Source of the DNA: Escherichia phage UB
Sequence record: MH383160
Strand: one strand, 5' to 3'
Length of the DNA: 64,000 nt
The notes beneath the pieces are model-generated. The model saw only the letters and a program-made list of their open reading frames with translations. It had not been told where the DNA came from and made no database searches. The translations under genes were made by a program, and so were the position numbers. Below, in pieces: positions 48,942-61,624 of the stretch. Every line of letters begins with the position of its first letter. The stretch's first letter is position 1.

Positions 48942-48978
48942 AACTTTTACTCCTGATAGTGTTTACCTGATATAAAGT

Positions 48979-49006
48979 ATTATACGCCTTTATTGCTTAG
49001 TGTCCA
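48979..49006 (-). promoter_or_regulatory. sigma70-like promoter
   Basis: minus strand TGGACA-N16-TATAAT. Confidence 0.45.
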
Positions 49007-49203: not shown

Positions 49204-49220
49204 TAGATAATCCTTAGTAC

Positions 49221-49508: not shown

Positions 49509-49526
49509 TAGATATTCCTCAGTAAA

Positions 49527-49546
49527 GGCGGGAACCATTCCCCGCC
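49527..49546 (-). other. intercistronic GC hairpin
   Basis: GGCGGG-N8-CCCGCC between 49564..50175 and 49221..49508; no promoter in this gap. Confidence 0.4.
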
Positions 49547-49563
49547 ATTATCTCAGTACTAAA

Positions 49564-50175
49564 TTAATATGCGATTGATTCTACTACGCCATCAATAACA
49601 TTGAATTGATACTCGTTACCCTCGATCAGTGCCGTGATGTTCTCAGTAGTGAATTGATCCTCATATGCATTCTCTAAATCACGGTACAACTTGCGGGATA
49701 ATTCACGAATAGTTTCAGTGAGTAGTTCCTCAAGCTCATTAACTAACGTTTCTTGTTTTGCGGTTAAATCAGTGTAAGCCGATTCAATGTACCCGCTTAC
49801 AGTATTCTCATGCGAGTAGTGGGAGTGAGAACGCTTTACACTCATCGGCAAATCATCTTCATTCAGCAGGTGACGGATTGAGCGATACTTAGTTAATGCT
49901 CTTACCTTGCGTAAAAACTTCACTGCGTCAACGTGGTCAGTACTGATTGATGCACCGTCACCTTGCGACCAAAAACCACTGAATCGTAAATCTGCGTCAT
50001 TAATGCCATATTCCGGTAGTACTGTTTCTTTATAGTATTCAATTTCACTTTCAGAAAAATAATCATCGTTTAAGTTTTTTTCACGTTCCCGAACCAGTTC
50101 GATAGCTGACGTTTGTTGTTCTGCGTTCAATTCAGAAAAAGCCATAACATAAGTAGTAGTAGTGATAGTTTTCAT
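49564..50175 (-). CDS. hypothetical acidic protein
   Basis: ORF track 203 aa; GAGGGT RBS. Confidence 0.6.
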   Translation of the reverse strand: MKTITTTTYVMAFSELNAEQQTSAIELVREREKNLNDDYFSESEIEYYKETVLPEYGINDADLRFSGFWSQGDGASISTDHVDAVKFLRKVRALTKYRSIRHLLNEDDLPMSVKRSHSHYSHENTVSGYIESAYTDLTAKQETLVNELEELLTETIRELSRKLYRDLENAYEDQFTTENITALIEGNEYQFNVIDGVVESIAY

Positions 50176-50207
50176 TTTGTAACCCTCATTCAGTAGTTGA
50201 TGTAAGT

Positions 50208-50235
50208 ATTATACGCTTTTAAAAACAATTGTCAA
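50208..50235 (-). promoter_or_regulatory. sigma70-like promoter
   Basis: minus strand TTGACA-N16-TATAAT. Confidence 0.55.
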
Positions 50236-50317
50236 ACTATTTTATCAGGGGAGTTTTTCGTGTGCCTTACTCCTGGGCTACTTAACGGGGAGTTACTTAT
50301 TTCGTCCCCCGTCCTGA
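50236..50317 (-). repeat. ~80-nt structured non-coding unit between tandem promoters (copy 2)
   Basis: near-identical to 40277..40358, with the same flanking promoter arrangement. Confidence 0.4.
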
Positions 50318-50325
50318 TGTAAAAC

Positions 50326-50353
50326 ATTATACGCCTTTAAACATAGTTTGCAA
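50326..50353 (-). promoter_or_regulatory. sigma70-like promoter
   Basis: minus strand TTGCAA-N16-TATAAT. Confidence 0.5.
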
Positions 50354-50402
50354 GTACTTTTTGAAAAATAGTTTTTAATCACTTTTATATAGATACACTC
50401 CC

Positions 50403-50416
50403 GCACCCTATGGGCT
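50403..50416. repeat. conserved intergenic box GCACCC-N3-GGGCT
   Basis: gcaccctatgggct; here followed by a different hairpin CCGGCTT-N17-AAGCCGG (50429..50459). Confidence 0.45.
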
Positions 50417-50476
50417 ATCGCCTTGTGTCCGGCTTGTAAGTATTATCTCACTAAGCCGGATAATGGTCAAGTACTT

Positions 50477-50743
50477 TTATTCAAGTACTGCTATCTTTTT
50501 AGTACTGTACACAGTAACACGGTTGCCCTTGCGGTCGTGCTTTATTTCTACCACTCGACGCGATACACTATCAGGACTTTTTAACGCCGATAACCAGTAC
50601 TGTAAGGATCTGGCTGTACTTTGCTTTACTACCGCCCAACGTTTACCACGTTCCGATTGCACGCCCATATCTTTAAACGTTGCCCCGTCCTGGCGAGCGG
50701 CGATCCGAGCTTGTTCACGCGTTGCAAAGTATATAATATTCAT
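50477..50743 (-). CDS. hypothetical protein, FATRE...HDRKGNRVTVYS paralog
   Basis: ORF trimmed to ATG 50743 (MNIIYFATREQARIAARQDGATFKDMG); paralog of 38767..39162. Confidence 0.55.
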   Translation of the reverse strand: MNIIYFATREQARIAARQDGATFKDMGVQSERGKRWAVVKQSTARSLQYWLSALKSPDSVSRRVVEIKHDRKGNRVTVYSTKKIAVLE

Positions 50744-50825
50744 GCTGTTATCCCATCGTTGATGTATGAATAAAATCCTATTATAAAGTACTATCACCGT
50801 GCAATAGTACTTTAAATAAATTCTA

Positions 50826-51065
50826 TTACATTCCAACCATTGCAGCACGGATCGCCGTAGTGCTATATTTGAATCCGTCCGGCGTTTTATCTTGTCCAGT
50901 CTGTTCTAAAAATAGCATCATATGACGGGCCGCATCATTGCGATTAGTGTTAGCGGCAATAAAGTCCTGGGCCAACCGGTATAATGATTCATCGTTATTA
51001 ATCCAAAGGCTTACATTCCATTGAGTTTTGTTAGCGTGACCTAAGAACATTTTTGATTTAGCCAT
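50826..51065 (-). CDS. hypothetical protein
   Basis: ORF track 79 aa; GAGGAT RBS. Confidence 0.55.
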   Translation of the reverse strand: MAKSKMFLGHANKTQWNVSLWINNDESLYRLAQDFIAANTNRNDAARHMMLFLEQTGQDKTPDGFKYSTTAIRAAMVGM

Positions 51066-51120
51066 TTTTAAATCCTCGTTTGATTTGAGGCGGGAATAGT
51101 TCCCGCTCTCGATGTAAAGT

Positions 51121-51148
51121 ATTATACGCTATTTGTTAGTACTGTCAA
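51121..51148 (-). promoter_or_regulatory. sigma70-like promoter
   Basis: minus strand TTGACA-N16-TATAAT. Confidence 0.55.
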
Positions 51149-51163
51149 ACTACTTTTTAAAAC

Positions 51164-51526
51164 TTATTCGTAAATCTTGCCACTGTCAGCCCATACCAGG
51201 AAACGAGGCATATTATCCCATGCATCTTGTTTTAAATTTAAACCGTGTAATACTTCTGTACTTTCCATTCCTGGTACTGGTTTACTATACACCGCGAACA
51301 ATTCACCCATATACTGATAAGCCATCGTTAAATCACTTGCGATCATCTTATGGATCATCGCATCAAGCATCACGGTAGCGGCGTATTGTTCACGCTTAAG
51401 CGGTAACATTGCAATAAGTTCCCGATAAGCTGAAATGTGAATTTTTACCGTTTCTGCCGGAAGATCTTTCATCTCGTCGCGGAAGTTAACCAGGTTAGCA
51501 ATAATTTTATTGATTTGAGTAGCCAT
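51164..51526 (-). CDS. hypothetical protein
   Basis: ORF trimmed to ATG 51526 (MATQINKIIANL); first gene of the early-like block. Confidence 0.6.
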   Translation of the reverse strand: MATQINKIIANLVNFRDEMKDLPAETVKIHISAYRELIAMLPLKREQYAATVMLDAMIHKMIASDLTMAYQYMGELFAVYSKPVPGMESTEVLHGLNLKQDAWDNMPRFLVWADSGKIYE

Positions 51527-51581
51527 CGTTTTAATCTCTCTTAAAGTGTAGCGGGAAGTGTTCCCGCTCTCGATGTAAAAC

Positions 51582-51609
51582 ATTCTACACCTTTCCCAAT
51601 ACTTTGCAA
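51582..51609 (-). promoter_or_regulatory. sigma70-like promoter
   Basis: minus strand TTGCAA-N16-TAGAAT. Confidence 0.5.
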
Positions 51610-51845
51610 GTACTTTCTACAAATACTTTTAAAATAGTTTTCTTTCTATATAGGAGTACTATCATTCAGTACTGCTACACTAGAATCAATCAACCAAATC
51701 ACTACTATACCCCATAAAACGGCCTCAGACGCATTCTAACGCATTAATACACCTAAGCTATACATTTGCACCGCCACCAGCTAACCAGGGCTTTACGATG
51801 CGTTTAAACGCGTTAAATTATTTTCAATTATTTTGTTTTTTGCTA

Positions 51846-51873
51846 TTGACTCAGTACTAAAAAAGCGTATAAT
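51846..51873 (+). promoter_or_regulatory. sigma70-like promoter on plus strand
   Basis: plus strand TTGACT-N16-TATAAT, directed toward the iteron region; no ORF downstream. Confidence 0.4.
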
Positions 51874-52061
51874 TACTACATAGACGCGAGAAAGCGGATA
51901 TCCCAAGGGGTGCGGAATTGTGCCCAAAATTCAAGATATAAAAAAAAGGATACACTCCCGCACCCTAGCAGGTCAAAGCACTTTCTCAGTACTGAATCAT
52001 AGTACCATAGTACGCCCCAGGATGGCAAGCAAATTAATTAAAACTTTTTTCATCCAGGGTA

Positions 52062-52089
52062 TTGCTTTATTTTTCCAGTACTGTATAAT
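52062..52089 (+). promoter_or_regulatory. sigma70-like promoter on plus strand
   Basis: plus strand TTGCTT-N16-TATAAT followed by AGCCCACCGGGTGC box (52116..52129). Confidence 0.4.
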
Positions 52090-52187
52090 AGTTTCATCAA
52101 GTCGAGAAAGACTATAGCCCACCGGGTGCATAGTTACGCCCAAAATTTCAGTACTAGATTATTTTTTAAAAATATTCATCCAGGCGG

Positions 52188-52216
52188 TTGACATTGCCCC
52201 CAGTTTATTAGATAAT
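52188..52216 (+). promoter_or_regulatory. sigma70-like promoter on plus strand
   Basis: plus strand TTGACA-N17-GATAAT immediately upstream of the iteron-like repeats. Confidence 0.4.
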
Positions 52217-52312
52217 GATTCCAGATTCAGAAAAATCTAACTCCAGATACTGCGGGGAAACTATCCCCACGCGGTAGGGGAACTATTGGAAAAAAACAAA
52301 ATAAAATTTTGA

Positions 52313-52500
52313 TTTAGCCGTCTATACTTCCAGACGTGTAACCATCTAGCCGTTTAGCCGTCCAAACGTCTAGCCATACAGCCATCCAGAAATCTAGCCG
52401 TTTAGCCGTCTAGATAGATAGCCATCTTTACTTCCAGACTTCTGGAGGGCTAGACATATCTACGTCCAAAATCCATCCAGGGTAACTACGCCCAAAATCC
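52313..52500. repeat. iteron-like direct repeat array (candidate replication origin or protein-binding array)
   Basis: TAGCCGT x5 and TAGCCAT x2; 19-mer ATCTAGCCGTTTAGCCGTC repeated at 52344 and 52392 (48-bp period); CCAGA motifs; non-coding. Confidence 0.45.
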
Positions 52501-52622
52501 GTCAGTACTATACCATAGATCTATCTTTTGAAAGGGAGTATTCAGTACTGCCACAATAGCCCTCACTGTTACTGTAGGAGGATGAAGACTATCATGTAGT
52601 ACTGAATACTGTTAGAGGGAAC

Positions 52623-52642
52623 CCACCAGCTTGTGCTGGTGG
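52623..52642. other. strong GC hairpin
   Basis: perfect 8-bp stem CCACCAGC-TTGT-GCTGGTGG, no U-run. Confidence 0.4.
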
Positions 52643-52826
52643 CATAATGCTTTAGATTAAAATCAGTACTAATACCATTCTGTTAATATCAGTACTGTTA
52701 TTACGATTTTCATATGAGGTTCAAAAAGATGTACCACCACAGGAGGAACTATCTTTTCTGTACTGTCTCACGACAGGAGGTAGAGTAAATGAATTGTTCG
52801 CAGCAACTCATCTCTCTATGTAGAAC

Positions 52827-52854
52827 ATTATACAGTACTGAATCATAATGTCAA
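52827..52854 (-). promoter_or_regulatory. sigma70-like promoter
   Basis: minus strand TTGACA-N16-TATAAT, directed leftward into the non-coding iteron region. Confidence 0.45.
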
Positions 52855-53492
52855 TAGCTTTCTTTCATTATTCAGTACTGATATTCTTGAGAACTACCCG
52901 ACTACAAACATCATTATATCCCACAAATCATAAACGTCCCAACGTAAATTTCAACTTTCGAAGATCCAACTTTTATTTCATAGGTACTCCAAAATTTTTA
53001 GGATCGAGATTTAGGATGGAGTACTAACCAACTTTTTGCTGGAGCCTCAAGGGGTAATGGAATTTTACCCCGAAGGGTAAAGGGGTAATTGAAATTAAGG
53101 TGAAAGTAATAATTCAGTACTAATCATTGCGTGATTACTTTTGATTACATTTGATGTAATTTGAAAAATGGAAAAGGAGCTTGGAAACTACAAAGTACGG
53201 CAGACTTCCTCTGCCTACTTAGTGGCATATTAGTACTGAATCATTCACACACATTTCCGTGCATTCTTGAGCAATCTTGTCTATACTAATCAGTACTGAA
53301 TCATATATAATCATTCTGTGATTCTACGGTGCTCATATAAATGTTTATATATGATTACTTATGACTACCTATGATTACGGGGTTTAGCCTGGGGAGAATC
53401 CTAGTGATCGCATTTGTCCAGGCTGAATTTTAACAATTCGCCTGTACATAAAGGTTGTTCACTAGGAGCTTCCCCTGTCTACTTGTGTTTAA

Positions 53493-53693
53493 TTACTTCC
53501 TATATATAAGCATTAAGATATAGTAGTACTGATTGTACTGTACATTCTCTTTAATATTATAAGGGTCTATAGCAATCTCGGTACATCTGTTAAATGCATA
53601 TCTATTAAATGCCAGTGGAATTATAGATCTAATCCATACTTGTTCATTTTCTTTTAGTTTACTTATATAGAAGTTTTTATACTCTTTATGCAT
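53493..53693 (-). CDS. MHKEYY family small protein (hypothetical)
   Basis: ORF track 66 aa; MHKEYKNFY...YYILMLIYRK. Confidence 0.55.
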   Translation of the reverse strand: MHKEYKNFYISKLKENEQVWIRSIIPLAFNRYAFNRCTEIAIDPYNIKENVQYNQYYYILMLIYRK

Positions 53694-53706
53694 AGTATTA
53701 TGTCTA

Positions 53707-53889
53707 TTAATATGATAGTACTAGTGTTAGTACTGAGCACAATTTTTCTTTATAGTTCTTAGGGTATATAGAATCTTTTATGCACTCATTGAAGTGCCAT
53801 AGGTATAATCTTGGGTCGCATTCTTTATATATTCTTACGGGGACGAATGTTAGTTTTCTTATATAGAATTCTTTATGTTCTTTATTCAT
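53707..53889 (-). CDS. MHKEYY family small protein (hypothetical)
   Basis: ORF track 60 aa; MNKEHKEFY... Confidence 0.55.
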   Translation of the reverse strand: MNKEHKEFYIRKLTFVPVRIYKECDPRLYLWHFNECIKDSIYPKNYKEKLCSVLTLVLSY

Positions 53890-53890
53890 A

Positions 53891-54079
53891 TTAGTACCTG
53901 AATATAAGTAGGATTATGTTATAGTACTGGTTAGTACTGCAATGATTCTCTATACATCGATTAACAGTTATGGAATAGCTATATCTGGCGTAAGCATTAT
54001 CCAGCGGGATTTTACATTGAGCACTTAGAGAAAGTACAGTAGGTAGTGTATTCAAATAGAAGTCTTTGTAATTATTCAT
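53891..54079 (-). CDS. MHKEYY family small protein (hypothetical)
   Basis: ORF track 62 aa; MNNYKDFY...YNIILLIFRY. Confidence 0.55.
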   Translation of the reverse strand: MNNYKDFYLNTLPTVLSLSAQCKIPLDNAYARYSYSITVNRCIENHCSTNQYYNIILLIFRY

Positions 54080-54281
54080 ACAGGAATAGTATACCTATGA
54101 TGCCGGAGTACAGGTTAGTACTGTTACCATCTTCATTTGCGTTTAAAGTCATTTGAATACAATTATTGTAGCATACTCTGCCGAAATATGTATTAGTACT
54201 TAAAGGTGGTGTAGTCCTTAGAAACATTTGTTCTGAGGGGCTTATGTATTTGGAGTAGAATTCTTTATGTTCTTTATTCAT
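54072..54281 (-). CDS. MHKEYY family small protein (hypothetical)
   Basis: ORF track 69 aa; MNKEHKEFY...; near-duplicate of 57255..57464. Confidence 0.55.
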   Translation of the reverse strand: MNKEHKEFYSKYISPSEQMFLRTTPPLSTNTYFGRVCYNNCIQMTLNANEDGNSTNLYSGIIGILFLYE

Positions 54282-54286
54282 ATTAG

Positions 54287-54472
54287 TTAGTGTCTGTATA
54301 TAAGTAATAGTAAGAATACGTACTGCACATCTTCATCTTTAGTATTGAGTACTGTACGTATTGCGTCATGGAACAAGAATATAGTACTTGGGTCATGAAA
54401 ATTTAAAGGGGTTCTGGGTACGGCACATTTGTAGTTCCCTTTAACAAATTGTGTGTAGTATTCTCTATGCAT
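54287..54472 (-). CDS. MHKEYY family small protein (hypothetical)
   Basis: ORF track 61 aa; MHREYY...LLLLIYRH. Confidence 0.55.
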   Translation of the reverse strand: MHREYYTQFVKGNYKCAVPRTPLNFHDPSTIFLFHDAIRTVLNTKDEDVQYVFLLLLIYRH

Positions 54473-54473
54473 A

Positions 54474-54659
54474 TTAGTACCTATATATTAGGGCGAGAAT
54501 GTAGTACAATTCATATGGAATGTAATTTGGGGTGATCGCACACTGTGTATGGTAAATGAATTGTTCGGTATTTTTCTTATCCTTGATATCTATTGGGATT
54601 TGTGGTATAAGCATTTGGGAGTTTAGATCGAGATGGCTTAAGTAGAATTCTTTATGCAT
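54474..54659 (-). CDS. MHKEYY family small protein (hypothetical)
   Basis: ORF track 61 aa; MHKEFY...YYILALIYRY. Confidence 0.55.
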   Translation of the reverse strand: MHKEFYLSHLDLNSQMLIPQIPIDIKDKKNTEQFIYHTQCAITPNYIPYELYYILALIYRY

Positions 54660-54668
54660 ATTGTTCTC

Positions 54669-54857
54669 TTAGAATACGAAAGCTAGGTACAGGGTATGAT
54701 ACAGTACTCGATGATAGCTGTCAAAATCTAGTATACATGCTTTAGTACACATAGTAAAATACACTTTATCATTTTGTGCATTGATACCGCGAGGTTTATC
54801 TAATAGATTAGTTCTGAGGTACATTGGGAAATATTTTGTGTAGTATTCTTTATGCAT
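54669..54857 (-). CDS. MHKEYY family small protein (hypothetical)
   Basis: ORF track ORF trimmed to ATG 54857 (MHKEYYTKYFPMYL). Confidence 0.55.
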   Translation of the reverse strand: MHKEYYTKYFPMYLRTNLLDKPRGINAQNDKVYFTMCTKACILDFDSYHRVLYHTLYLAFVF

Positions 54858-54858
54858 G

Positions 54859-55041
54859 TTAGTACCTGAATATAAGTAGGATAGTGTTATATAGCTGGTC
54901 ATAACTACTACTATTTTCTATACTTCGTTCTATGCAGTTATTGAATCCAAGTACTGCCAAATCGTTATCCAGAGGGACTTTATATCTGGCGTAGTGTTCA
55001 AAAATGCTGGGGAGAAATTGTTTGTAGTATTCTTTGTGCAT
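54859..55041 (-). CDS. MHKEYY family small protein (hypothetical)
   Basis: ORF track 60 aa; MHKEYYKQF...YNTILLIFRY. Confidence 0.55.
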   Translation of the reverse strand: MHKEYYKQFLPSIFEHYARYKVPLDNDLAVLGFNNCIERSIENSSSYDQLYNTILLIFRY

Positions 55042-55051
55042 ATTGTTCTCT

Positions 55052-55240
55052 TTAGTACTTGAATATTAGGGCGAGGATGTAATACAGTTTATATGTTCTA
55101 TCCTCGTACATTAGGGTGTACTTAGTACATTCTTGGAACATTGTTTTTGCGTCATCTTTTATGCCCAATGTAACGTTTGGTATAAGGCTTTGTAGATACA
55201 TTGGGAGTTTCTCTATGTAGTATTCTTTATAGTTGTTCAT
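55052..55240 (-). CDS. MHKEYY family small protein (hypothetical)
   Basis: ORF track 62 aa; MNNYKEYYIEKLPMYL...YYILALIFKY. Confidence 0.55.
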   Translation of the reverse strand: MNNYKEYYIEKLPMYLQSLIPNVTLGIKDDAKTMFQECTKYTLMYEDRTYKLYYILALIFKY

Positions 55241-55248
55241 ATTATGTG

Positions 55249-55428
55249 TTATTTCGTGAAAACAAGGGTTAGTACTGCATAGTACAAGTCATACGTATCT
55301 TTAGGGTTAATAGCACCTTTAATACATTCTTTCATTAATTCATTATAGATAATTTTAGTACTGAAGGTATTGGATGTTACTATATCGGAATTAAGGTACG
55401 ACAAGTAGAATTCTTTATGTTTGTGCAT
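55249..55428 (-). CDS. MHKEYY family small protein (hypothetical)
   Basis: 59-aa ORF MHKHKEFYLSYL...YYAVLTLVFTK; below ORF-track cutoff. Confidence 0.45.
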   Translation of the reverse strand: MHKHKEFYLSYLNSDIVTSNTFSTKIIYNELMKECIKGAINPKDTYDLYYAVLTLVFTK

Positions 55429-55429
55429 A

Positions 55430-55615
55430 TTAGTACTTATATATTAGTAAAAGGATGTGATACAGTACTCGATTATAGTCTTCAATATATATCGAGGATT
55501 TAGTGCACTGAATGAAGTAGTCTTTTTCGTAGTTTTTTTCTATACCCAATGGTTCTGTTGGTAGAAGGTGTTGGAGATACATTGGGAGTTTCTCTATGTA
55601 GTATTCTTTATGCAT
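55430..55615 (-). CDS. MHKEYY family small protein (hypothetical)
   Basis: ORF track ORF trimmed to ATG 55615 (MHKEYYIEKLPMYL). Confidence 0.55.
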   Translation of the reverse strand: MHKEYYIEKLPMYLQHLLPTEPLGIEKNYEKDYFIQCTKSSIYIEDYNRVLYHILLLIYKY

Positions 55616-56273
55616 AGTTTGTAATATACGTAATGAGGTGATGCATTTTCTTATTAGTACTGATAATTTCCTGTACATGTTTTGTCAGATTGTACGCGTT
55701 TTTATAGAGTACTGGATTATCGATTACAGTACTGTACATGAATAGTTCTTCTTCCTGTAGTTCTTTGTGTTCTAGTTCTTTGAGGAATTGCAGTACTGTA
55801 TCAGTTTCGTCAGTAGGTTGTGCTTGCCAGAAGTGCATTTTCTCGTGTACTTTTTCTGATCCTACGTAGTATCCATCACCGATTTGGAATTGAGCACTAC
55901 TGATATCATTTGGTGTATTACAATTCACGAATAGGTATACGTTTCCATAAGAGATATTCAAAACACACGGGATACCATTTAACTGTATAGTTAAGCCGAA
56001 ATATACGTTTTTTATATTTTTAGTACTAGTATTAGTACTCAATACTTTTAAATCAGTATTATAGATATTCGCATAATCAATAGAGATATTATTTTTCTTC
56101 AAGTACGATTTGAGGTTCTTAGATACGAGAACTGTACTGAATTTATCCTTTTTATTTCGTTTCTTTAGTACATTAGGGTGATAAGTATATGAAGATGTAA
56201 CTGATTCTGCTTGAATACTGTTGAGGTACTTAAAGTGCTTAAGGTATTGTTTACTGTGTGCATTAAGTTTCAT
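55608..56273 (-). CDS. FQ-motif family protein (hypothetical), outlier copy inside MHKEYY array
   Basis: ORF track 221 aa; motif EEELFMYSTVID. Confidence 0.6.
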   Translation of the reverse strand: MKLNAHSKQYLKHFKYLNSIQAESVTSSYTYHPNVLKKRNKKDKFSTVLVSKNLKSYLKKNNISIDYANIYNTDLKVLSTNTSTKNIKNVYFGLTIQLNGIPCVLNISYGNVYLFVNCNTPNDISSAQFQIGDGYYVGSEKVHEKMHFWQAQPTDETDTVLQFLKELEHKELQEEELFMYSTVIDNPVLYKNAYNLTKHVQEIISTNKKMHHLITYITNYA

Positions 56274-56283
56274 TTGGTTTCCT

Positions 56284-56463
56284 TTATATAGATGCCAGGG
56301 CGAGGATTTCCCTGTAGGGATTATCTTGTGTTAGTACAGAATAAATGCAGCTATTGAGATTAATATTTTTAGTACTTTTTGTTCCTAGTTTGTAGTAATC
56401 AACGAATGTGTCGTACATGAAACGGTCTTTTATGGTTATACGTTCTATATAGAATTGTTGCAT
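56284..56463 (-). CDS. MHKEYY family small protein, divergent (hypothetical)
   Basis: 59-aa ORF MQQFYIERITIKDRF...; below ORF-track cutoff. Confidence 0.4.
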   Translation of the reverse strand: MQQFYIERITIKDRFMYDTFVDYYKLGTKSTKNINLNSCIYSVLTQDNPYREILALASI

Positions 56464-56471
56464 AGTATTCC

Positions 56472-56654
56472 TTATATAGAGATTAGTTTCATTACTTCTC
56501 TGTATGTGTACTTTTCGTTTTGTGCATCTCTTGTGACGACATATAGGAAGGTGTGTTTATCTTTTTTGTTCCCGCAATTGTAGAAAATATTGAACTTATT
56601 GAAGTTGAATCTTTCGGCGTGTTGTAGTTTAGTTAAATAGAATTCTATGTTCAT
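56472..56654 (-). CDS. MHKEYY family small protein, divergent (hypothetical)
   Basis: ORF track 60 aa; MNIEFYLTKL...KYTYREVMKLISI. Confidence 0.5.
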   Translation of the reverse strand: MNIEFYLTKLQHAERFNFNKFNIFYNCGNKKDKHTFLYVVTRDAQNEKYTYREVMKLISI

Positions 56655-56662
56655 TTTATTCC

Positions 56663-56848
56663 TTACATTTCAATAAGTTTAAGTACTGCTCGGTACGTGT
56701 ACTTAGTTGTCAGTGCTTCTTTAATAGAAACACAGAAGTAATGTTTTTTGTCTCTTATACTGCCGCGTTTGTAGTACCACACATGGGAGTTGTGACTGTA
56801 CTTGTCTCTGTCGGATAGTTGTTGGTAGTAGTAGCTTATATGATTCAT
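56663..56848 (-). CDS. MHKEYY family small protein, divergent (hypothetical)
   Basis: ORF track 61 aa; ...KYTYRAVLKLIEM. Confidence 0.5.
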   Translation of the reverse strand: MNHISYYYQQLSDRDKYSHNSHVWYYKRGSIRDKKHYFCVSIKEALTTKYTYRAVLKLIEM

Positions 56849-57057
56849 TATAATGTAATTAGCCTTACTATATTAAAGTACTCGGTTCCTGGTGTACCTT
56901 GTAGTATATTACGCACGACATTTTTTTGGTGCTGGATGATTGCTGAAGGTGCGGTTCTTTTTAGTTTTTTTAAAGTACTGAATTCTTGTTTAAGTATGAA
57001 CTGTACATCTTTAGGGAGAATATCTATGTAGTACTGATGAATGTTTGTAGTTTTCAT
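56848..57057 (-). CDS. MHKEYY family small protein, divergent (hypothetical)
   Basis: ORF track 69 aa; MKTTNIHQYYIDILP... Confidence 0.5.
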   Translation of the reverse strand: MKTTNIHQYYIDILPKDVQFILKQEFSTLKKLKRTAPSAIIQHQKNVVRNILQGTPGTEYFNIVRLITL

Positions 57058-57067
57058 ATAGCACCTT

Positions 57068-57262
57068 TTAGAACTTAAAGATGAGGTTCAGGATAGAGCG
57101 GTACTTAGTTTCAGGGAACTGATGTTCTATTGCATAACGTGTCGCCATCCTGAAATCGTAATTGTAATATAGATTATCCTTTCTCATAGGTGGTGCTAAA
57201 GAGAATGATAGCTGGTCTTGCTTGTGTAGTTTACTACCATAGAAATCTTTATGATTATTCAT
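57068..57262 (-). CDS. MHKEYY family small protein (hypothetical)
   Basis: ORF track 64 aa; MNNHKDFY...LNLIFKF. Confidence 0.55.
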   Translation of the reverse strand: MNNHKDFYGSKLHKQDQLSFSLAPPMRKDNLYYNYDFRMATRYAIEHQFPETKYRSILNLIFKF

Positions 57263-57464
57263 AGAAGTAGATTAGTCCTATTAAACCTGAGTACATAATA
57301 TTTTTGTTATTGCATTCGATTGCTTCTAGAGTACTACGTATACAATTATTAAAGCAATCTCTACCGAATTGAGTATTGGTACTTACAGGTGATACACTCC
57401 TTAGAAACAATTGTTCTTCGTTGCTAAGGTATTTGGTGTAGAATTCTTTATGTTCAGTATTCAT
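57255..57464 (-). CDS. MHKEYY family small protein (hypothetical)
   Basis: ORF track 69 aa; MNTEHKEFYTKYLS... Confidence 0.55.
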   Translation of the reverse strand: MNTEHKEFYTKYLSNEEQLFLRSVSPVSTNTQFGRDCFNNCIRSTLEAIECNNKNIMYSGLIGLIYFYE

Positions 57465-57465
57465 A

Positions 57466-57669
57466 TTAGTACTCGATTAATAGGGTAAGGATGTAATAGT
57501 ATTGCATACATTCTACCCCTTGTAAAGCATTTCTTATGTTATTATTCCTGTACGAGTTCAGGAGTTTAGGGCTACGTTTGAGGTGTTTGAAATTAGTTTG
57601 TGTATGCAGTAGGCTTTCACGTAGACCTTTTGTTGGTAGTGCATCGATGTAGTACTGTTCGATATTCAT
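57466..57669 (-). CDS. MHKEYY family small protein, divergent (hypothetical)
   Basis: ORF track 67 aa; MNIEQYYIDALP...YYYILTLLIEY. Confidence 0.5.
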   Translation of the reverse strand: MNIEQYYIDALPTKGLRESLLHTQTNFKHLKRSPKLLNSYRNNNIRNALQGVECMQYYYILTLLIEY

Positions 57670-57893
57670 ATAGATAGCAGTACTAAGATTTTTGATAATT
57701 GTTTATTGCTATCCCCGCAGATGTTGCTGTGTAAAATACTCACAATGAGGGTATCAATTGCATTGTTCATCATAAGGGTGCATCCTGGACTATTATAATT
57801 TTTTAGCTCAATTAGCCACGAACTATCCGAGAGAAATTCCCCGTACTCTAGTTCATTTAGAGTATTGAGGTAGTACTTAAGAGTATTTGTCAT
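57666..57893 (-). CDS. MHKEYY family small protein, divergent (hypothetical)
   Basis: ORF track 75 aa; first gene of array; AAGGAG RBS. Confidence 0.5.
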   Translation of the reverse strand: MTNTLKYYLNTLNELEYGEFLSDSSWLIELKNYNSPGCTLMMNNAIDTLIVSILHSNICGDSNKQLSKILVLLSI

Positions 57894-57908
57894 GTGTAGT
57901 TCTCCTTA

Positions 57909-57937
57909 TATTCCTTCTATAGTACACCAGTACTGAA
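57909..57937 (-). promoter_or_regulatory. sigma70-like promoter for the MHKEYY array
   Basis: minus strand TTGACA-N17-TACTAT in the divergent intergenic region. Confidence 0.45.
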
Positions 57938-57964
57938 AGGATGTCAAGGGTTTTCTTTATGGGG

Positions 57965-57979
57965 TAAATATGATATAAT
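57965..57979 (+). promoter_or_regulatory. -10-only promoter-like element (candidate late-type promoter)
   Basis: TAAATATGATATAAT followed by GAATAAGGAGG RBS; no -35 match. Confidence 0.35.
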
Positions 57980-57995
57980 GAATAAGGAGGGAAAT

Positions 57996-59132
57996 ATGTT
58001 ACCTTTTGCAAGAATGATGAATTATGGGAACGTAGCACCAGATAAACTAAAAATACGTGATATTGTTGCAGGTGCTAATTCATTATTACTAATAACAGAG
58101 GATAATGAATTATGGGTGCGTGGTAATAATGCGTATGGCAAATTAGGTATAGGAACTGATACTATAGTGAATGTAACCGAGTGGACTAAAGTTAGAGATG
58201 ATGTTAAGTTTGCTTGTGCTAGTAATTTAGTATGCGTTGTATTAACTGTAGATAATAAAATTTTATACTGTGGTGATGAATGGTTTGAATCTGGTGGTTC
58301 GACAAGTTCTAAAGTTGTTACATGGAAAGATGTTACGACACAATTTAGTGCAGTGAATCTAAGCACAGTTCGTGAAATGAAAATAACTTATTATTGTGTA
58401 GGATTACTTACAAATGATAATAGATTATATGCTAAAGGATATGATAATAACCAATCATTTGGTGGTTCAACAAGCAAAGTTAATGCTGTATTAGTTGCGT
58501 CAAATGTTTCAAAATTCTACACTTCTCTATCTGGTACTATATATTCTAGTACTACTGGTGGTTACTATCGCTGTGGTATAAGCAATACTGGAGCATTGGG
58601 TACTAGCACAAATTTAACTTCTTATAATTTGTACTCTGCTCCCGAATTTGCATCCGAATGTGCAGTTGGTATGTCAACATTAAACTCTGGTATATTATAT
58701 TATGATACTAATGGTATCACTAGATATGTTATAGCAGGTCAAAATAGAAATTATCAACTAGGTAATTCTTCTTCAAATACCACAAACGTATATTCGTATA
58801 CAGAATTAACCGGATATAGAGGCAGGTTTAGGGATTTGTGGAGTGATATGAATAACTCTGTTCTTTCTTTTGCTATAAGCACAGATGGCAATACTTTATA
58901 TTATGCTGGTACTAACAATACACTATCTTCTGGTGATCCTGGTGTTGAATATTCATCTGCATTCAAAGAAGTACCACACGGGTTTAATGATATAACAAAG
59001 GCGGCATCGTTAGCATATCTATCTATAGTGCAAGATTCAACGGGATGGTATTATTCTGGAAATGCAACTACGTTATATGGTTTGCCATCGAGTGGTGAAT
59101 TTATACCATTACCATTACCAACATTAATTTAA
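57996..59132 (+). CDS. RCC1-like repeat (beta-propeller) protein, MLPFARM paralog family
   Basis: ORF trimmed to ATG 57996 after AAGGAGG; repeats GNNAYGKLGIG, GYDNNQSFGG, GQNRNYQLGN. Confidence 0.6.
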   Translation: MLPFARMMNYGNVAPDKLKIRDIVAGANSLLLITEDNELWVRGNNAYGKLGIGTDTIVNVTEWTKVRDDVKFACASNLVCVVLTVDNKILYCGDEWFESGGSTSSKVVTWKDVTTQFSAVNLSTVREMKITYYCVGLLTNDNRLYAKGYDNNQSFGGSTSKVNAVLVASNVSKFYTSLSGTIYSSTTGGYYRCGISNTGALGTSTNLTSYNLYSAPEFASECAVGMSTLNSGILYYDTNGITRYVIAGQNRNYQLGNSSSNTTNVYSYTELTGYRGRFRDLWSDMNNSVLSFAISTDGNTLYYAGTNNTLSSGDPGVEYSSAFKEVPHGFNDITKAASLAYLSIVQDSTGWYYSGNATTLYGLPSSGEFIPLPLPTLI

Positions 59133-59138
59133 ATATAG

Positions 59139-59169
59139 GCCAGTACTTGATACTGGCTTTCTTTTTTTT
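59139..59169 (+). terminator. intrinsic terminator
   Basis: GCCAGTA-CTTGA-TACTGGC then T-rich run. Confidence 0.6.
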
Positions 59170-59172
59170 GTA

Positions 59173-59188
59173 TTAAATATAGTATAAT
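59173..59188 (+). promoter_or_regulatory. -10-only promoter-like element
   Basis: conserved TTAAATATAGTATAAT immediately before GAATAAGGAGG. Confidence 0.35.
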
Positions 59189-59204
59189 GAATAAGGAGGG
59201 ATTT

Positions 59205-60314
59205 ATGTTACCTTTTGGAAGAATGGTTAAGTACGGAAATATTGTACCTGGTCCTAAAAATATAATTAAAGTTGGTGCTTCTACACAAGGTCAATTCTTA
59301 TTGACTGATTCACATGATTTATATTACATAGGTAGAAATCAAGGTGGTGAATCTGGAAATGGTAATACCAACACGGTATCTTCATGGATATTAGTAAGTG
59401 CAGATGTTTCTAATTTTTTCGTGGGTGATCGTACACTTGTTATTATTAAAAATGATAATACTATATGGACATCAGGTCAAACGTACTGGTTCTCATCTTC
59501 TACAACTACTTCTTACAGTACTGTATTAGTTGAAAGGACTAGTTGGTTTACCACGGCTATACCAGTAAGTGAGATTGCTAATATTGTATGTACAAATGGT
59601 TTAATATTTGTACTTAGCACTAATTCAGTACTCTATGGTGCAGGAGATAATGGATATCGTGGTTCTTTGGGTATTGGTTCATCATCAATTTATACATTAA
59701 CTCAATGTGCTACGAACGTTCGTAAAGTAATGACAAATGCGAATGATAGTATGTATCTTACATTAGATAATAAGCTATATAGTTCTGGATGGAATAGTAG
59801 TGGGCAGCATGGTACGGGGAACCAAACACAAATTAATACTTGGGGATTACGTAGTTCTGGTGTAATCGATGCAGCAATTGGTGGTAATGCATTAAATTAC
59901 TATAATGGTACATCATATTTCGTATGTGGTCAAACTCCAAACTTTCTTAGTTCAGGTACGACTACATTCCGTGCAGTTCCTGTAAGTACTTTGCCTAATA
60001 GTTCTCCGTTGTTTATGACGAATTCACCTGCATTAAATACTGCTACACAAATGGTAATTACTAGTACATATCAGAAGGGTGTTGGGGCGAACCGTGGTTT
60101 GGGATTAAACAATTCTCAAACTGGTGCTATATATAGTGCTACCAATTTACAATTACCCGTTGAAGTTAGTGAGATTAGGGATGTTCTTTTTAGTGATGGT
60201 TTGACATCGATATTAACCAAAAATGGAGATGTGTATAGTACTGGATCGTATTACGCCATTCCAGGTGCAATCGAGGATGTTGCAGTCTTTACTAAAATTG
60301 ATTTACCAAAATAA
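59205..60314 (+). CDS. RCC1-like repeat protein, MLPFGRM paralog family
   Basis: ORF trimmed to ATG 59205; repeats GDNGYRGSLGIG, GWNSSGQHGTG. Confidence 0.6.
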   Translation: MLPFGRMVKYGNIVPGPKNIIKVGASTQGQFLLTDSHDLYYIGRNQGGESGNGNTNTVSSWILVSADVSNFFVGDRTLVIIKNDNTIWTSGQTYWFSSSTTTSYSTVLVERTSWFTTAIPVSEIANIVCTNGLIFVLSTNSVLYGAGDNGYRGSLGIGSSSIYTLTQCATNVRKVMTNANDSMYLTLDNKLYSSGWNSSGQHGTGNQTQINTWGLRSSGVIDAAIGGNALNYYNGTSYFVCGQTPNFLSSGTTTFRAVPVSTLPNSSPLFMTNSPALNTATQMVITSTYQKGVGANRGLGLNNSQTGAIYSATNLQLPVEVSEIRDVLFSDGLTSILTKNGDVYSTGSYYAIPGAIEDVAVFTKIDLPK

Positions 60315-60320
60315 CATAAT

Positions 60321-60350
60321 GCCAGTACTTGATACTGGCTTTTATTTTTT
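60321..60350 (+). terminator. intrinsic terminator
   Basis: GCCAGTA-CTTGA-TACTGGC then TTTTATTTTTT. Confidence 0.6.
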
Positions 60351-60352
60351 GA

Positions 60353-60368
60353 TTAAATATAGTATAAT
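60353..60368 (+). promoter_or_regulatory. -10-only promoter-like element
   Basis: TTAAATATAGTATAAT before RBS. Confidence 0.35.
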
Positions 60369-60384
60369 GAATAAAGGAGGAATT

Positions 60385-61572
60385 ATGTTACCTTTTGCAA
60401 GAATGGTTAAGTACGGGAATAAAGTCATTCCATATGTTCCCAATTTTACTAAATTAGTCACCCCAGCAGTTGGTTATTCATTTACATGCACAATGCTGCT
60501 GGATGTAAATGGATCAGTGTGGGCTATGGGTCTTCAGAATGGTGGAATTTTTGGGTTAGGGAATACTACACAGGTTACTGAATGGACAAAAATATATAGC
60601 AATGTTAAAGATTTTTGGTGCAGTACAGGGAATGGGTTTTGTCTAATACGAACAAATGATGATAGATTCTTTTATAGTGGTTTAGATAAATGGCTAGGTA
60701 ATAATACAACAAATACTGTAACAACATTCACTGAATGTACGAGTTATTTTACACAATTTGGTATTTCAAAAATCAAAGAGATATATGTAGGTCTTGATTA
60801 TGCTTTGATTTTAGGTACTGATAATAGTTTATATTTGTTAGGTGATAATAAAAATTCAAAGTTTGGTTTAAACACTGCATCATATTTTAATAAATTTACA
60901 TTTTTAGTCGATAATGTTAAAAAATTCTGTTCATCCATCACACCCTCTAACTGGATTATTAAACTAGATAATACAATATGGCGTACTGGGACAACATCTC
61001 ATGGAACGTTGGGAAATGGAGTTCAAAACACATATATATTTCCTTGGGTTCAATATAAGGGCACACCTGTTACCGAAGCTATAGACGTTTTTTGTAGTGC
61101 GAGTTATATTGGTATTATAACTAAAGGTACACCAGAATCATGTCCTATGTATACAATGGGCTATCAAGCTGATGGTCAGTTGGGTAATAATACTACAGCA
61201 GGGGGTTATAAATTAACGCCAACGTTATCGAAAACCGTTCCAGATGATAGTGAATTCATTCGAATTGAAAACATCTCATCCCGTGGCCTGGTATATTATA
61301 GCTCTGGTAAAATTTATAGTACTGGTTATAATAACAATGGTCAATTGGCAAATAACAGTACAATTAATTCTGGTTCATTTGTTGAAGCAATTTTACCTGA
61401 TGGTGTTAATTTTAAGAAAAGTGAATCACTTGTAGCTGGGAACGATGCAACGTTGTATATGTACATTAATAATAAATTATACTACGCGGGGAAATCCCCT
61501 GATAATATTTCAGCAAGTAGTTCATCTGTCATGAAAGAGTTCCCACTTCCAACAATCAATGCCAGTACTTGA
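60385..61572 (+). CDS. RCC1-like repeat protein, MLPFARM paralog family
   Basis: ORF-track ORF 60223..61572 trimmed to ATG 60385 after AAAGGAGG; repeats GLQNGGIFGLGN, GYQADGQLGNN, GYNNNGQLANN. Confidence 0.6.
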   Translation: MLPFARMVKYGNKVIPYVPNFTKLVTPAVGYSFTCTMLLDVNGSVWAMGLQNGGIFGLGNTTQVTEWTKIYSNVKDFWCSTGNGFCLIRTNDDRFFYSGLDKWLGNNTTNTVTTFTECTSYFTQFGISKIKEIYVGLDYALILGTDNSLYLLGDNKNSKFGLNTASYFNKFTFLVDNVKKFCSSITPSNWIIKLDNTIWRTGTTSHGTLGNGVQNTYIFPWVQYKGTPVTEAIDVFCSASYIGIITKGTPESCPMYTMGYQADGQLGNNTTAGGYKLTPTLSKTVPDDSEFIRIENISSRGLVYYSSGKIYSTGYNNNGQLANNSTINSGSFVEAILPDGVNFKKSESLVAGNDATLYMYINNKLYYAGKSPDNISASSSSVMKEFPLPTINAST

Positions 61573-61590
61573 TACTGGTATTCTTATTTG
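61561..61590 (+). terminator. intrinsic terminator
   Basis: CCAGTA-CTTGA-TACTGG then T-rich run; overlaps stop codon. Confidence 0.55.
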
Positions 61591-61592
61591 TA

Positions 61593-61608
61593 TTAAATAT
61601 AGTATAAT
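61593..61608 (+). promoter_or_regulatory. -10-only promoter-like element
   Basis: TTAAATATAGTATAAT before RBS. Confidence 0.35.
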
Positions 61609-61624
61609 GAATAAAGGAGGAATT

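What the first reader, a model, noticed from the sequence alone, without database searches (positions are those of the whole stretch)
53493..57893. Array of about 19 MHKEYY-type small proteins
Tightly packed ~60-aa ORFs with conserved N-terminus M(H/N)KE(Y/F)Y..(K/Y)L and conserved hydrophobic C-terminus (Y)YIL(A/T)LI(Y/F)(R/K)Y; intergenic gaps of ~1-10 nt. Two members fell below the ORF-track cutoff (55249..55428, 56284..56463). A third lineage-specific family of unknown function.
Basis: seen in the sequence. Interest (0 to 1): 0.7.

Follow-up and report, generated by a model that had tools for sequence, protein, structure and literature searches.

The report
Tandem small-protein gene array, jumbo coliphage
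A 4.4-kb stretch of a giant E. coli virus carries 19 back-to-back genes for tiny helical proteins found only in this one virus genus; they are real, selected genes that are gained and lost by recombination, but what they do is still unknown.

Summary
Window 53493-57893 (minus strand) carries 19 intact ATG-started ORFs of 59-75 aa plus one unrelated 221-aa ORF. Dinucleotide shuffles give 0.4 such ORFs.

The window comes from a 121Q/PBECO4-type jumbo coliphage (Asteriusvirus).
- **Family membership:** 13 ORFs form a solid family (phrog_11711, function unknown). Five are remote relatives (profile-profile P about 1e-5). The first gene is not demonstrably related.
- **Coding evidence:** orthologues in four relatives stay intact, with frame-specific dN/dS of about 0.4 against 1.2-1.9 in the other frames.
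- **Distribution:** an exhaustive HMM search of 1.84 billion proteins finds 32 clusters, all 59-75 aa. Every named member checked is from this phage group.
- **Structure:** AlphaFold gives a confident four-helix mini-domain (pLDDT 91) with no transmembrane segment and no informative fold match.
- **Copy number:** 16-21 among relatives. One two-gene difference maps exactly to a 32-nt block shared by two gene starts, which indicates unequal recombination.
- **Expression signals:** a conserved sigma70-type promoter and strong ribosome-binding site precede the first gene. C-terminal AGG/AAG codons double as ribosome-binding sites for the next gene.

Most likely this is an early, non-virion, host-directed multigene family. 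That function is inferred, not shown. The array is ordinary in kind for a jumbo phage and uncharacterised in detail.

The parts
57919..57947 (-). Sigma70-type promoter-like site TTGACA-17-TACTAT, with CAGTACTG in the spacer, upstream of the first gene
   Evidence: 10 of 12 match; sequence. From the -35 element to the ATG it is invariant in slurp01, JP4 and WPEC5, with one spacer change in 121Q, although WPEC5 coding dS is about 0.23. It shares the -35 hexamer and spacer motif with the many near-consensus minus-strand promoter-like sites between about 34.8 and 52.9 kb. Activity has not been tested.
57902..57907 (-). Shine-Dalgarno AAGGAG, 8 nt before the ATG of the first gene
   Evidence: Invariant in five phages.
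57666..57893 (-). m19, 75 aa, first cistron. Carries a YY..L start and a hydrophobic end, but family membership is not demonstrated
   Evidence: hhalign against the core group gives P about 0.01, the same range as the negative control against an unrelated family. Orthologues are 79-100% identical.
57466..57669 (-). m18, 67 aa, remote subgroup B2
   Evidence: Core versus B2 hhalign P 1.9e-5.
57255..57464 (-). m17, 69 aa, core member; paralogue of m04
   Evidence: phmmer E about 1e-28 to m04. The 245-nt repeat 57226-57470 versus 54043-54287 is 74% identical.
57068..57262 (-). m16, 64 aa, core member; paralogue of m03. Overlaps m17 by 8 nt
56848..57057 (-). m15, 69 aa, remote subgroup B2. Absent from JP4 and 121Q
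56663..56848 (-). m14, 61 aa, remote subgroup B1
   Evidence: Core versus B1 hhalign P 7e-6.
56472..56654 (-). m13, 60 aa, subgroup B1. Sits at a variable slot: four m13-like genes in JP4 and WPEC5
   Evidence: 77% nt identity to JP4 while flanking genes are 93-99%.
56284..56463 (-). m12, 59 aa, subgroup B1
55608..56273 (-). Unrelated 221-aa gene embedded in the operon (phrog_29152, unknown function)
   Evidence: Present at the same place in the four well-annotated relatives examined (JP4, slurp01, WPEC5, 121Q). Best database homologue is only 80% identical. dS is 0.28-0.34 against 0.03-0.06 for flanking genes. No similarity to the small family. The AlphaFold model is unusable (pLDDT 40).
55430..55615 (-). 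m11, 61 aa, core member (true start is the internal ATG at 55615). This is the protein that was modelled
   Evidence: AlphaFold pLDDT 91.4, pTM 0.75.
55249..55428 (-). m10, 59 aa, core member
55052..55240 (-). m09, 62 aa, core member. Variable slot: only about 60-66% identity to the nearest gene in relatives
54859..55041 (-). m08, 60 aa, core member
54669..54857 (-). m07, 62 aa, core member (true start is the internal ATG at 54857)
54696..54724 (-). Internal promoter-like site TTGACA-17-TATCAT inside m07. Possible internal promoter, or a by-product of the RVLYH coding sequence
   Evidence: (11 of 12). Untested.
54474..54659 (-). m06, 61 aa, core member
54287..54472 (-). m05, 61 aa, core member
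54072..54281 (-). m04, 69 aa, core member. Absent from 121Q
53891..54079 (-). m03, 62 aa, core member. Absent from 121Q
53707..53889 (-). m02, 60 aa, core member
53493..53693 (-). m01, 66 aa, core member, last cistron
   Evidence: phrog_11711, E 2.6e-22.
54256..54287 (-). 32-nt block (ACTAATATGAATAAAGAACATAAAGAATTCTA) spanning the start of m04. Recombination substrate, copy 1
   Evidence: Identical to the block at the start of m02. The 121Q junction equals the m05 side, then this block, then the m02 body. Repeat family D5.
53864..53895 (-). The same 32-nt block spanning the start of m02. Recombination substrate, copy 2

Best explanation
This is one densely packed operon of an Asteriusvirus (121Q/PBECO4-type) jumbo coliphage. 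It encodes a genus-restricted multigene family of soluble, tyrosine-rich mini-proteins of about 60 aa.

**Shown**
- All 19 small ORFs and the embedded 221-aa ORF are intact.
- Substitutions show frame-specific purifying selection.
- The core fold is a confident four-helix mini-domain. Its conserved residues are mostly aromatic or hydrophobic, consistent with a buried core (residue burial was not inspected). The segment at residues 12-33 and the turn at 43-50 are variable.
- There is no transmembrane segment.
- The array changes by whole-gene units. Copy number is 16-21 in close relatives, and at least one two-gene difference is explained by unequal homologous recombination in a 32-nt block shared by two gene starts.
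- Individual slots carry much more diverged alleles than their neighbours.

**Inferred from sequence**
- Transcription starts at a conserved sigma70-type promoter 26 nt upstream of the first ATG (host RNA polymerase, so early expression).
- Translation runs along the message by coupling. Stop and start codons are 1-13 nt apart or overlap.
- The family's C-terminal Arg/Lys codon is AGG or AAG 7 nt before the next ATG, where it serves as that gene's ribosome-binding site.

**Inferred by analogy**
- The proteins are non-virion, early, host-directed binders acting in host takeover, counter-defence or exclusion of competitors.
- Paralogue diversity reflects different or polymorphic targets.
For: **Real genes**
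- 20 ORFs against 0.41 expected.
- 19 of 19 ATG starts and 18 of 19 TAA stops.
- Orthologues are intact in four phages. Pooled dN/dS is 0.36-0.42 in frame against 1.2-1.9 in the two other frames.

**Family**
- phrog_11711 hits 13 of 19, best E 3.6e-28.
- The core is linked by many pairwise hits.
- Core versus B1 gives P 7e-6 and core versus B2 P 1.9e-5. The control against the unrelated LGTNYQE family gives P 0.03-0.3.

**Restriction**
- 35 of 50,697 phage records match; all those listed are 310-386 kb.
- 32 clusters among 1.84 billion representatives, all 59-75 aa.
- Every named member checked is from Asteriusvirus-type phages or 'E. coli' contigs of about 350 kb.

**Fold**
- pLDDT 91.4 and pTM 0.75, with helices at 3-7, 12-15, 28-43 and 47-60.
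- Conserved positions are Y5, Y6, L10, F34, C37, I38, A41, L42, Y51, I54, L55, L57, I58. Residues 12-33 and 43-50 are variable.
- Maximum 19-residue hydropathy is 1.18.

**Turnover**
- Synteny maps.
- Exact recombinant junction in 121Q.
- Junction repeat families D5, D16 and D18.

**Expression signals**
- Promoter-like site, invariant across five phages except one spacer base.
- Same architecture as the many near-consensus minus-strand promoter-like sites between about 34.8 and 52.9 kb.
- AAGGAG before the first gene.
- AGG/AAG make up 8 of 10 Arg/Lys codons in the last four codons against 18 of 135 elsewhere, Fisher p 1.4e-5.

**Non-virion**
- None of these proteins is among the 62 virion proteins of phAPEC6, although a 4.7-kDa protein was detected there. 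The adjacent RCC1-like proteins are virion proteins (PMC7247149).

**Analogy**
- In the related phage CBB, RpoD-like promoters cluster in a region of short hypothetical ORFs that its authors interpret as early host-takeover genes (PMC5259590).
Against: - No expression, interaction or phenotype data exist for any member.
- The promoter's -10 element is only 4 of 6, and promoter-like hits in this AT-rich region are no more frequent than in shuffles (25 found, 30.6 expected).
- dN/dS of about 0.4 is only moderate constraint.
- Absence from one virion proteome is weak evidence for 7-kDa proteins.
- m19 and the 221-aa gene show that the operon is not a pure family array.
Confidence: 0.55

Rival explanations
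1. Neutral genome filler. Tandem duplication simply adds DNA to fill an enlarged headful capsid (the ratchet idea of Hua et al. 2017), and the proteins have no specific function.
For: [quoted passage not shown] The phAPEC6 authors echo this. More than half of this window consists of paralogue arrays. Copy number varies. Constraint is only moderate.
Against: Paralogues are old (14-46% identity) yet every one keeps an intact frame in 33% GC DNA. Selection is frame-specific. Conserved aromatic and hydrophobic positions and a confident fold indicate selection on the proteins. The translation signals are maintained.
Confidence: 0.12
2. Small membrane-associated proteins, for example tail-anchored, holin-like or superinfection-exclusion peptides, using the hydrophobic C-terminus.
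For: The C-terminal 9-13 residues are strongly hydrophobic (YYILALIY, IIGILFLY).
Against: The maximum 19-residue Kyte-Doolittle mean is 1.18, and for most members it is below 0.8. I take this to be below the usual transmembrane cutoff of about 1.6, from my own knowledge. The hydrophobic run is too short to span a bilayer. AlphaFold places it as the last helix of a confidently predicted small helical domain. There is no signal peptide or lipobox.
Confidence: 0.08
3. Small nucleic-acid-binding proteins, either specific transcription factors or DNA-packaging proteins. This would resemble what was proposed for the roughly 35-copy Zn-ribbon expansion of phage G, or a link to the inner body seen in 121Q and phAPEC6 and to the neighbouring RCC1-like 'DNA condensation' proteins.
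For: Iyer et al. propose transcription-factor or structural DNA-binding roles for the phage G expansion (PMC7824862). 121Q and phAPEC6 show an inner body. Several members are basic, with pI 9-10. The array sits next to virion RCC1-like genes.
Confidence: 0.1
4. Decaying non-coding tandem repeats or annotation noise rather than genes.
For: The genes are missing from several GenBank annotations: PBECO4, SP27 and Sharanji, and partly slurp01. ORFs are fragmented in the CMSTMSU record.
Against: 20 ORFs against 0.41 expected. Orthologues are intact in four well-assembled relatives. Constraint is frame-specific. CMSTMSU is flagged UNVERIFIED and is fragmented throughout. An independent PHROG profile matches.
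Confidence: 0.02

Closest known systems
PHROG family phrog_11711 (unknown function) and the 'hypothetical proteins' annotated at this locus in 121Q (genes 249-265), JP4, WPEC5 and slurp01
   Same: Thirteen of the 19 proteins match this profile end to end (E down to 3.6e-28). Orthologues are annotated at the syntenic place in relatives.
   Different: Six members do not reach the profile. The array, its subgroups, its operon organisation and its recombination dynamics are not described in any paper I could find.
Other tandem paralogue arrays of jumbo phages: the array of more than 30 genes in 121Q and phage G (Hua et al. 2017, PMC5646251) and the roughly 35-copy Zn-ribbon expansion in phage G (Iyer et al. 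2021, PMC7824862)
   Same: Lineage-specific expansion by tandem duplication in a jumbo phage, with small proteins of unknown role. The same window holds two more arrays of this kind (about 180-aa family at 315-27500; about 70-aa LGTNYQE family, phrog_4148, at 27477-33412).
   Different: The sequence family is unrelated (control hhalign P 0.03-0.3). There is no Zn-ribbon. The array of more than 30 genes mentioned for 121Q is probably the 180-aa family rather than this one; that is my inference.
Early or host-takeover regions of large virulent phages: the CBB early region CBB_390-546 (PMC5259590), and the SPO1 host-takeover module and T4 early plastic regions (the last two from my own knowledge)
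   Same: Short ORFs of unknown function behind host-sigma70-type promoters, densely packed, and variable between relatives.
   Different: Those regions consist mostly of unrelated singletons, each with its own promoter. Here a single promoter-like site appears to serve about 20 coupled cistrons that are mostly paralogues. Early timing is not measured here.
Multigene families and 'gene accordions' of large eukaryotic DNA viruses: ASFV MGF100/110/360 and poxvirus K3L amplification (from my own knowledge)
   Same: Tandem arrays of diverged paralogues. Copy number differs between close isolates and changes by recombination between repeated units.
   Different: Different viruses, hosts and protein folds. 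A role in host range or immune evasion is demonstrated there and is only hypothesised here.

Membership tests
phrog_11711 | Significant full-length match to the PHROG profile HMM | tested here: met
   13 of 19 members match, best E 3.6e-28, and member 1 covers profile positions 2-62 of 62. The other six (m12-15, m18, m19) do not match at E <= 0.01.
Single superfamily comprising all 19 ORFs | Profile-profile similarity of each subgroup to the core that is clearly better than to an unrelated small-protein family | tested here: inconclusive
   Core versus B1 (m12-14) gives P 7e-6 and probability 84%. Core versus B2 (m15, m18) gives P 1.9e-5 and probability 78%. Both are co-linear over 51-55 columns. 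m19 gives P about 0.01 over 16 columns, which is no better than the control against the LGTNYQE family (P 0.03-0.3).
Integral or tail-anchored membrane proteins | A hydrophobic segment long enough to span the bilayer (about 18-20 residues, Kyte-Doolittle 19-residue mean of roughly 1.6 or more) | tested here: not met
   The maximum 19-residue mean is 1.18 (m19), and it is at most 1.02 for all other members. The hydrophobic run is about 9-13 residues. AlphaFold places it as the last helix of a confidently predicted small helical domain.
Early (host sigma70-dependent) phage transcription unit | A functional sigma70 promoter upstream, and transcription in the first minutes of infection | tested here: inconclusive
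   TTGACA-17-TACTAT lies 26 nt upstream of the first ATG. It is conserved in five phages and has the same architecture as the many near-consensus minus-strand promoter-like sites nearby. No transcript data are available.
Virion structural or internal proteins | Detection in purified virions | tested here: not met
   No protein from this locus is among the 62 phAPEC6 virion proteins, whereas the adjacent RCC1-like proteins gp549, gp551, gp003 and others are. This is published data for a relative and is weak evidence for 7-kDa proteins.
Gene-accordion-type multigene family | Copy-number differences between close relatives, generated by recombination between repeated units | tested here: met
   16, 19, 20, 20 and 21 members in 121Q, the window, slurp01, WPEC5 and JP4. 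The 121Q m05-m02 junction is the exact product of recombination within the 32-nt block shared by the starts of m04 and m02.
Gene-accordion-type multigene family | Amplification or diversification is adaptive against a host restriction factor | not testable with these tools
   This needs experimental evolution or host-range genetics.
Known defence or anti-defence, Pfam, NCBIfam or PDB families | Any significant sequence or fold match | tested here: not met

The most novel reading that the evidence does not exclude
The array is a phage-borne 'accordion' of mini-binders. Each paralogue would present a different variable surface (residues 12-33 and 43-50) on a fixed helical scaffold to neutralise a different or polymorphic host defence protein or competitor-phage protein. 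The nucleotide-identical gene-start blocks would be retained because they let the array expand, contract and swap alleles in whole-gene units.
Probability: 0.25. Interest if true: 0.7.

Novelty: new member of a known kind. Interest (0 to 1): 0.35.

Why it matters
If the proteins are early host-directed binders, this locus supplies about 20 natural variants of one 60-aa scaffold per phage, and several dozen diverged clusters across the genus. Such variants could be screened against E. coli defence systems or essential host machines.

The locus is also a clean bacterial-virus example of unit-precise copy-number change by recombination at conserved gene starts, comparable to the multigene families of large eukaryotic DNA viruses.

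There is a practical point too. Several GenBank records of this genus leave these genes unannotated, so pangenome and host-range analyses of therapeutic jumbo coliphages miss a variable locus.

Tried and rejected
**Searches that found nothing informative**
- Pfam, NCBIfam, PADLOC and a PDB sequence-profile search.
- Foldseek on PDB found nothing. Foldseek on BFVD found only family members.
- The afdb50 library was not available.
- Rfam on the whole window gave no hit, and there are no tRNAs.

**The embedded 221-aa gene**
- I hoped it would give a functional clue.
- It is genus-restricted.
- Its AlphaFold model is unusable (pLDDT 40).
- It shows no similarity to the small family.

**Relationship between families**
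- I tested whether the MHKEYY family is related to the neighbouring LGTNYQE family. It is not.

**Literature**
- Searches on Asteriusvirus, 121Q, PBECO4, paralogues and early genes returned only general remarks on tandem duplication. There was no transcriptome and no functional data.

**CMSTMSU**
- Its fragmented copies could be read as evidence of decay. I rejected that reading because the record is flagged UNVERIFIED and is fragmented throughout.

**Terminator**
- No convincing intrinsic terminator follows the last gene, so the 3' end of the transcript is undefined.

Full report
**What the window is**

The region 53400-58000 matches 35 phage records by megablast, 31 from Escherichia and 4 from Salmonella. 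All those listed are 310-386 kb. The best are vB_Eco_slurp01 (93% identity, 100% coverage), JP4 and 121Q, which are classified in Asteriusvirus. No record is identical, so the window comes from a new isolate of this jumbo-coliphage genus. In the relatives the locus is annotated only as 'hypothetical protein', or is left unannotated.

**Checking the observation**

The minus strand of 53493-57893 holds 19 ORFs of 59-75 aa, numbered here m01 at 53493 to m19 at 57893. An unrelated 221-aa ORF lies at 55608-56273.
- All 19 start with ATG and 18 end with TAA.
- Spacing between neighbours runs from an 8-nt overlap to a 13-nt gap.
- Two mechanical ORFs are over-extended. The family-type starts MHKEYY are the internal ATGs at 54857 and 55615.
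- Dinucleotide shuffles of the region give 0.41 ± 0.63 such ORFs (maximum 3 in 500) against 20 observed. The opposite strand has one.

**Is it one family?**

A MAFFT alignment shows an invariant Tyr and a near-invariant Leu, with 14-42% pairwise identity to the first member.
- An independent profile, phrog_11711 (unknown function), matches 13 of 19.
- All-against-all phmmer links those 13 (m01-m11, m16, m17) into one cluster. It leaves m12-14, m15 with m18, and m19 as separate groups.
- After enriching each group with database homologues, profile-profile comparison gives P 7e-6 for core versus m12-14 and P 1.9e-5 for core versus m15/m18. Both alignments are co-linear over 51-55 columns.
- m19 reaches only P about 0.01 over 16 columns. 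That is the same range as a negative control against the unrelated LGTNYQE family of the same window (P 0.03-0.3).

So there are 13 solid members, 5 probable remote members and 1 unproven member. The family HMM finds no other copy in the 64-kb window.

**Are they genes?**

Orthologues in slurp01, JP4, 121Q and WPEC5 are intact. The apparent breaks in that table are alignments to paralogues or a shifted stop.

Pooled Nei-Gojobori dN/dS is 0.36-0.42 in the annotated frame against 1.2-1.9 in the two other frames. This is moderate, frame-specific purifying selection. The fragmented copies in CMSTMSU sit in a record flagged UNVERIFIED.

**Distribution**

| Search | Result |
|---|---|
| Word-indexed search of 5.8 billion proteins | 49 hits, all 51-98 aa, no Pfam domains |
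| Exhaustive HMM search of 1.84 billion representatives | 32 clusters, all 59-75 aa |
| Names of cluster members | Every named member checked is from an Asteriusvirus-type phage or an 'E. coli' contig of about 350 kb |
| tblastn against phage records | 35 records, the same number and host split as the DNA search |

The family is genus-restricted.

**The protein**

The proteins are tyrosine-rich (10.6% Tyr), and pI ranges from 4.7 to 10.0. The maximum 19-residue hydropathy is 1.18, so the hydrophobic C-terminus is not a transmembrane segment.

AlphaFold2 with a 62-sequence alignment gives pLDDT 91.4 and pTM 0.75 for m11, with helices at 3-7, 12-15, 28-43 and 47-60.

The conserved positions are Y5, Y6, L10, F34, C37, I38, A41, L42, Y51, I54, L55, L57 and I58. 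They are mostly aromatic or hydrophobic, which is consistent with a buried core, although I did not inspect burial in the model. Residues 12-33 and 43-50 are variable.

No informative fold match was found:
- Foldseek on PDB finds nothing.
- BFVD returns only family members.
- Pfam, NCBIfam, PADLOC and a PDB sequence profile are all negative.

**Expression signals**

The 84-nt gap between m19 and the divergently oriented RCC1-like gene contains TTGACA-17-TACTAT, followed by AAGGAG 8 nt before the ATG. From the -35 element to the ATG this is invariant in slurp01, JP4 and WPEC5, with one spacer change in 121Q. WPEC5 array genes, by contrast, have a pooled dS of about 0.23.

The site shares its -35 hexamer and the CAGTACTG spacer motif with the many near-consensus sigma70-type sites on the same strand between about 34.8 and 52.9 kb, several of them perfect TTGACA-16-TATAAT. 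In the related phage CBB such a promoter-rich region of short ORFs was interpreted as early host-takeover genes. That is an inference by its authors, not a test.

Within the array, AGG or AAG supplies 8 of the 10 Arg/Lys codons in the last four codons, against 18 of 135 elsewhere (Fisher p 1.4e-5). These codons lie 7 nt before the next ATG. The 'conserved C-terminus' is therefore constrained twice, as protein and as the ribosome-binding site of the next cistron. Early timing and coupling are inferred, not measured.

**Dynamics**

| Phage | Family members |
|---|---|
| 121Q | 16 |
| This window | 19 |
| slurp01 | 20 |
| WPEC5 | 20 |
| JP4 | 21 |

- The ends of the array are conserved. The middle varies, for example four m13-like genes in JP4 and WPEC5, and the m09 and m11 slots exchanged relative to slurp01.
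- 121Q lacks m04 and m03. Its m05-to-m02 junction consists of the window's m05 side, a 32-nt block that is identical at the starts of m04 and m02, and the m02 body. This is the signature of unequal homologous recombination between conserved gene starts.
- m17-m16 and m04-m03 form an older two-gene block duplication.
- The embedded 221-aa gene and slots m09, m13 and m16 are far more diverged between phages than their neighbours. For the 221-aa gene dS is 0.28-0.34 against 0.03-0.06. This points to allele replacement.

**Interpretation**

None of these proteins is in the phAPEC6 virion proteome, whereas the adjacent RCC1-like proteins are.

Taken together, the locus is best read as an early, non-virion, host-directed multigene family evolving like a gene accordion. 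The supporting features are:
- small soluble helical proteins with conserved aromatic and hydrophobic positions and variable segments between them;
- a single conserved host-type promoter;
- genus restriction;
- copy-number and allele turnover.

The existence, coding status, fold class and recombination mechanism are shown. The timing and the function are inferred.

The rivals are less well supported for the reasons given in their entries: neutral filler, membrane peptides, DNA-binding or packaging proteins, and decaying repeats.

**Novelty**

The sequences are already in databases (phrog_11711 and GenBank hypothetical proteins). Tandem duplication in 121Q has been remarked on in general terms. 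This array itself has not been described or characterised in the searchable literature. It is a new, well-resolved member of a known kind of feature, and its interest is moderate.

Noticed in passing
whole window; also L006 (121Q 250000-299999): The palindrome AGTACT is the single most frequent hexamer of the window: 262 copies against 18.7 expected from dinucleotide shuffles. The octamer CAGTACTG occurs 50 times against 0.7 expected. In minus-strand ORFs AGTACT falls in all three codon phases (54/38/66) and is also enriched in intergenic DNA, which points to DNA-level selection. There are stretches with none at about 18-24 kb and 30-32 kb. It is also the top hexamer in the structural region of 121Q (91 against 15.6 expected). 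I found no paper that mentions this. It may be a binding, modification or promoter-associated site.
   Followed up: partly
window 34800-52900, minus strand: A dense series of near-consensus sigma70 promoter-like sites, several of them perfect TTGACA-16-TATAAT and many with AGTACTG directly before the -10 element. Many of them lie within a repeated intergenic unit that also contains a G+C-rich hairpin (GGGGAGAAnnnTTCTCCCC type). The unit precedes small, unrelated genes and looks like an early-gene region.
   Followed up: partly
window 51600-53490: About 1.9 kb directly downstream of the array with no ORF of at least 60 aa. It contains an 8-nt periodic repeat (TAGCCGTC, about 12 copies, 52315-52413) and a perfect TTGACA-16-TATAAT on the minus strand (52854..52827) with no ORF behind it. 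It could be a non-coding RNA, an origin-like element or a degraded region. Rfam finds nothing.
   Followed up: no
window 55608-56273 (-): The 221-aa gene embedded in the array (phrog_29152) is much more diverged from relatives than the flanking small genes. It is 66-80% identical in protein, with dS 0.28-0.34 against 0.03-0.06. This suggests allele replacement or a hypervariable gene. Its AlphaFold model failed (pLDDT 40).
   Followed up: partly
window 315-27500 (-): A very long tandem array of roughly 50 ORFs of about 100-207 aa. The two sampled members each match a different specific PHROG (phrog_38467, phrog_33775) and both weakly match phrog_12674; all are of unknown function. This is probably the array of more than 30 genes mentioned for 121Q by Hua et al. 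2017.
   Followed up: no
window 27477-33412 (-): A second small-protein array: about 27 ORFs of 65-96 aa sharing an LGTNYQE motif (phrog_4148, unknown function). It is unrelated to the MHKEYY family by profile comparison.
   Followed up: partly
window 57978-62812 (+), possibly to 63621: Four tandem RCC1-like beta-propeller paralogues, transcribed divergently from the array, followed by a fifth ORF (62866-63621) that has no Pfam RCC1 match and only a weak N-terminal PHROG hit. Homologues in phAPEC6 are virion proteins annotated as 'DNA condensation proteins', and that phage has eleven of them.
   Followed up: partly
window 54696-54724 (-) and 55463-55485 (-): Promoter-like sequences inside m07 (TTGACA-17-TATCAT, 11 of 12) and the paralogous m11, overlapping the codons for RVLYH. 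They may be internal promoters or coding by-products.
   Followed up: no
GenBank records of relatives (PBECO4, SP27, Sharanji, slurp01, CRJP21): Several deposited genomes leave some or all of these small genes unannotated: tblastn matches with 'none' under the match.
   Followed up: no
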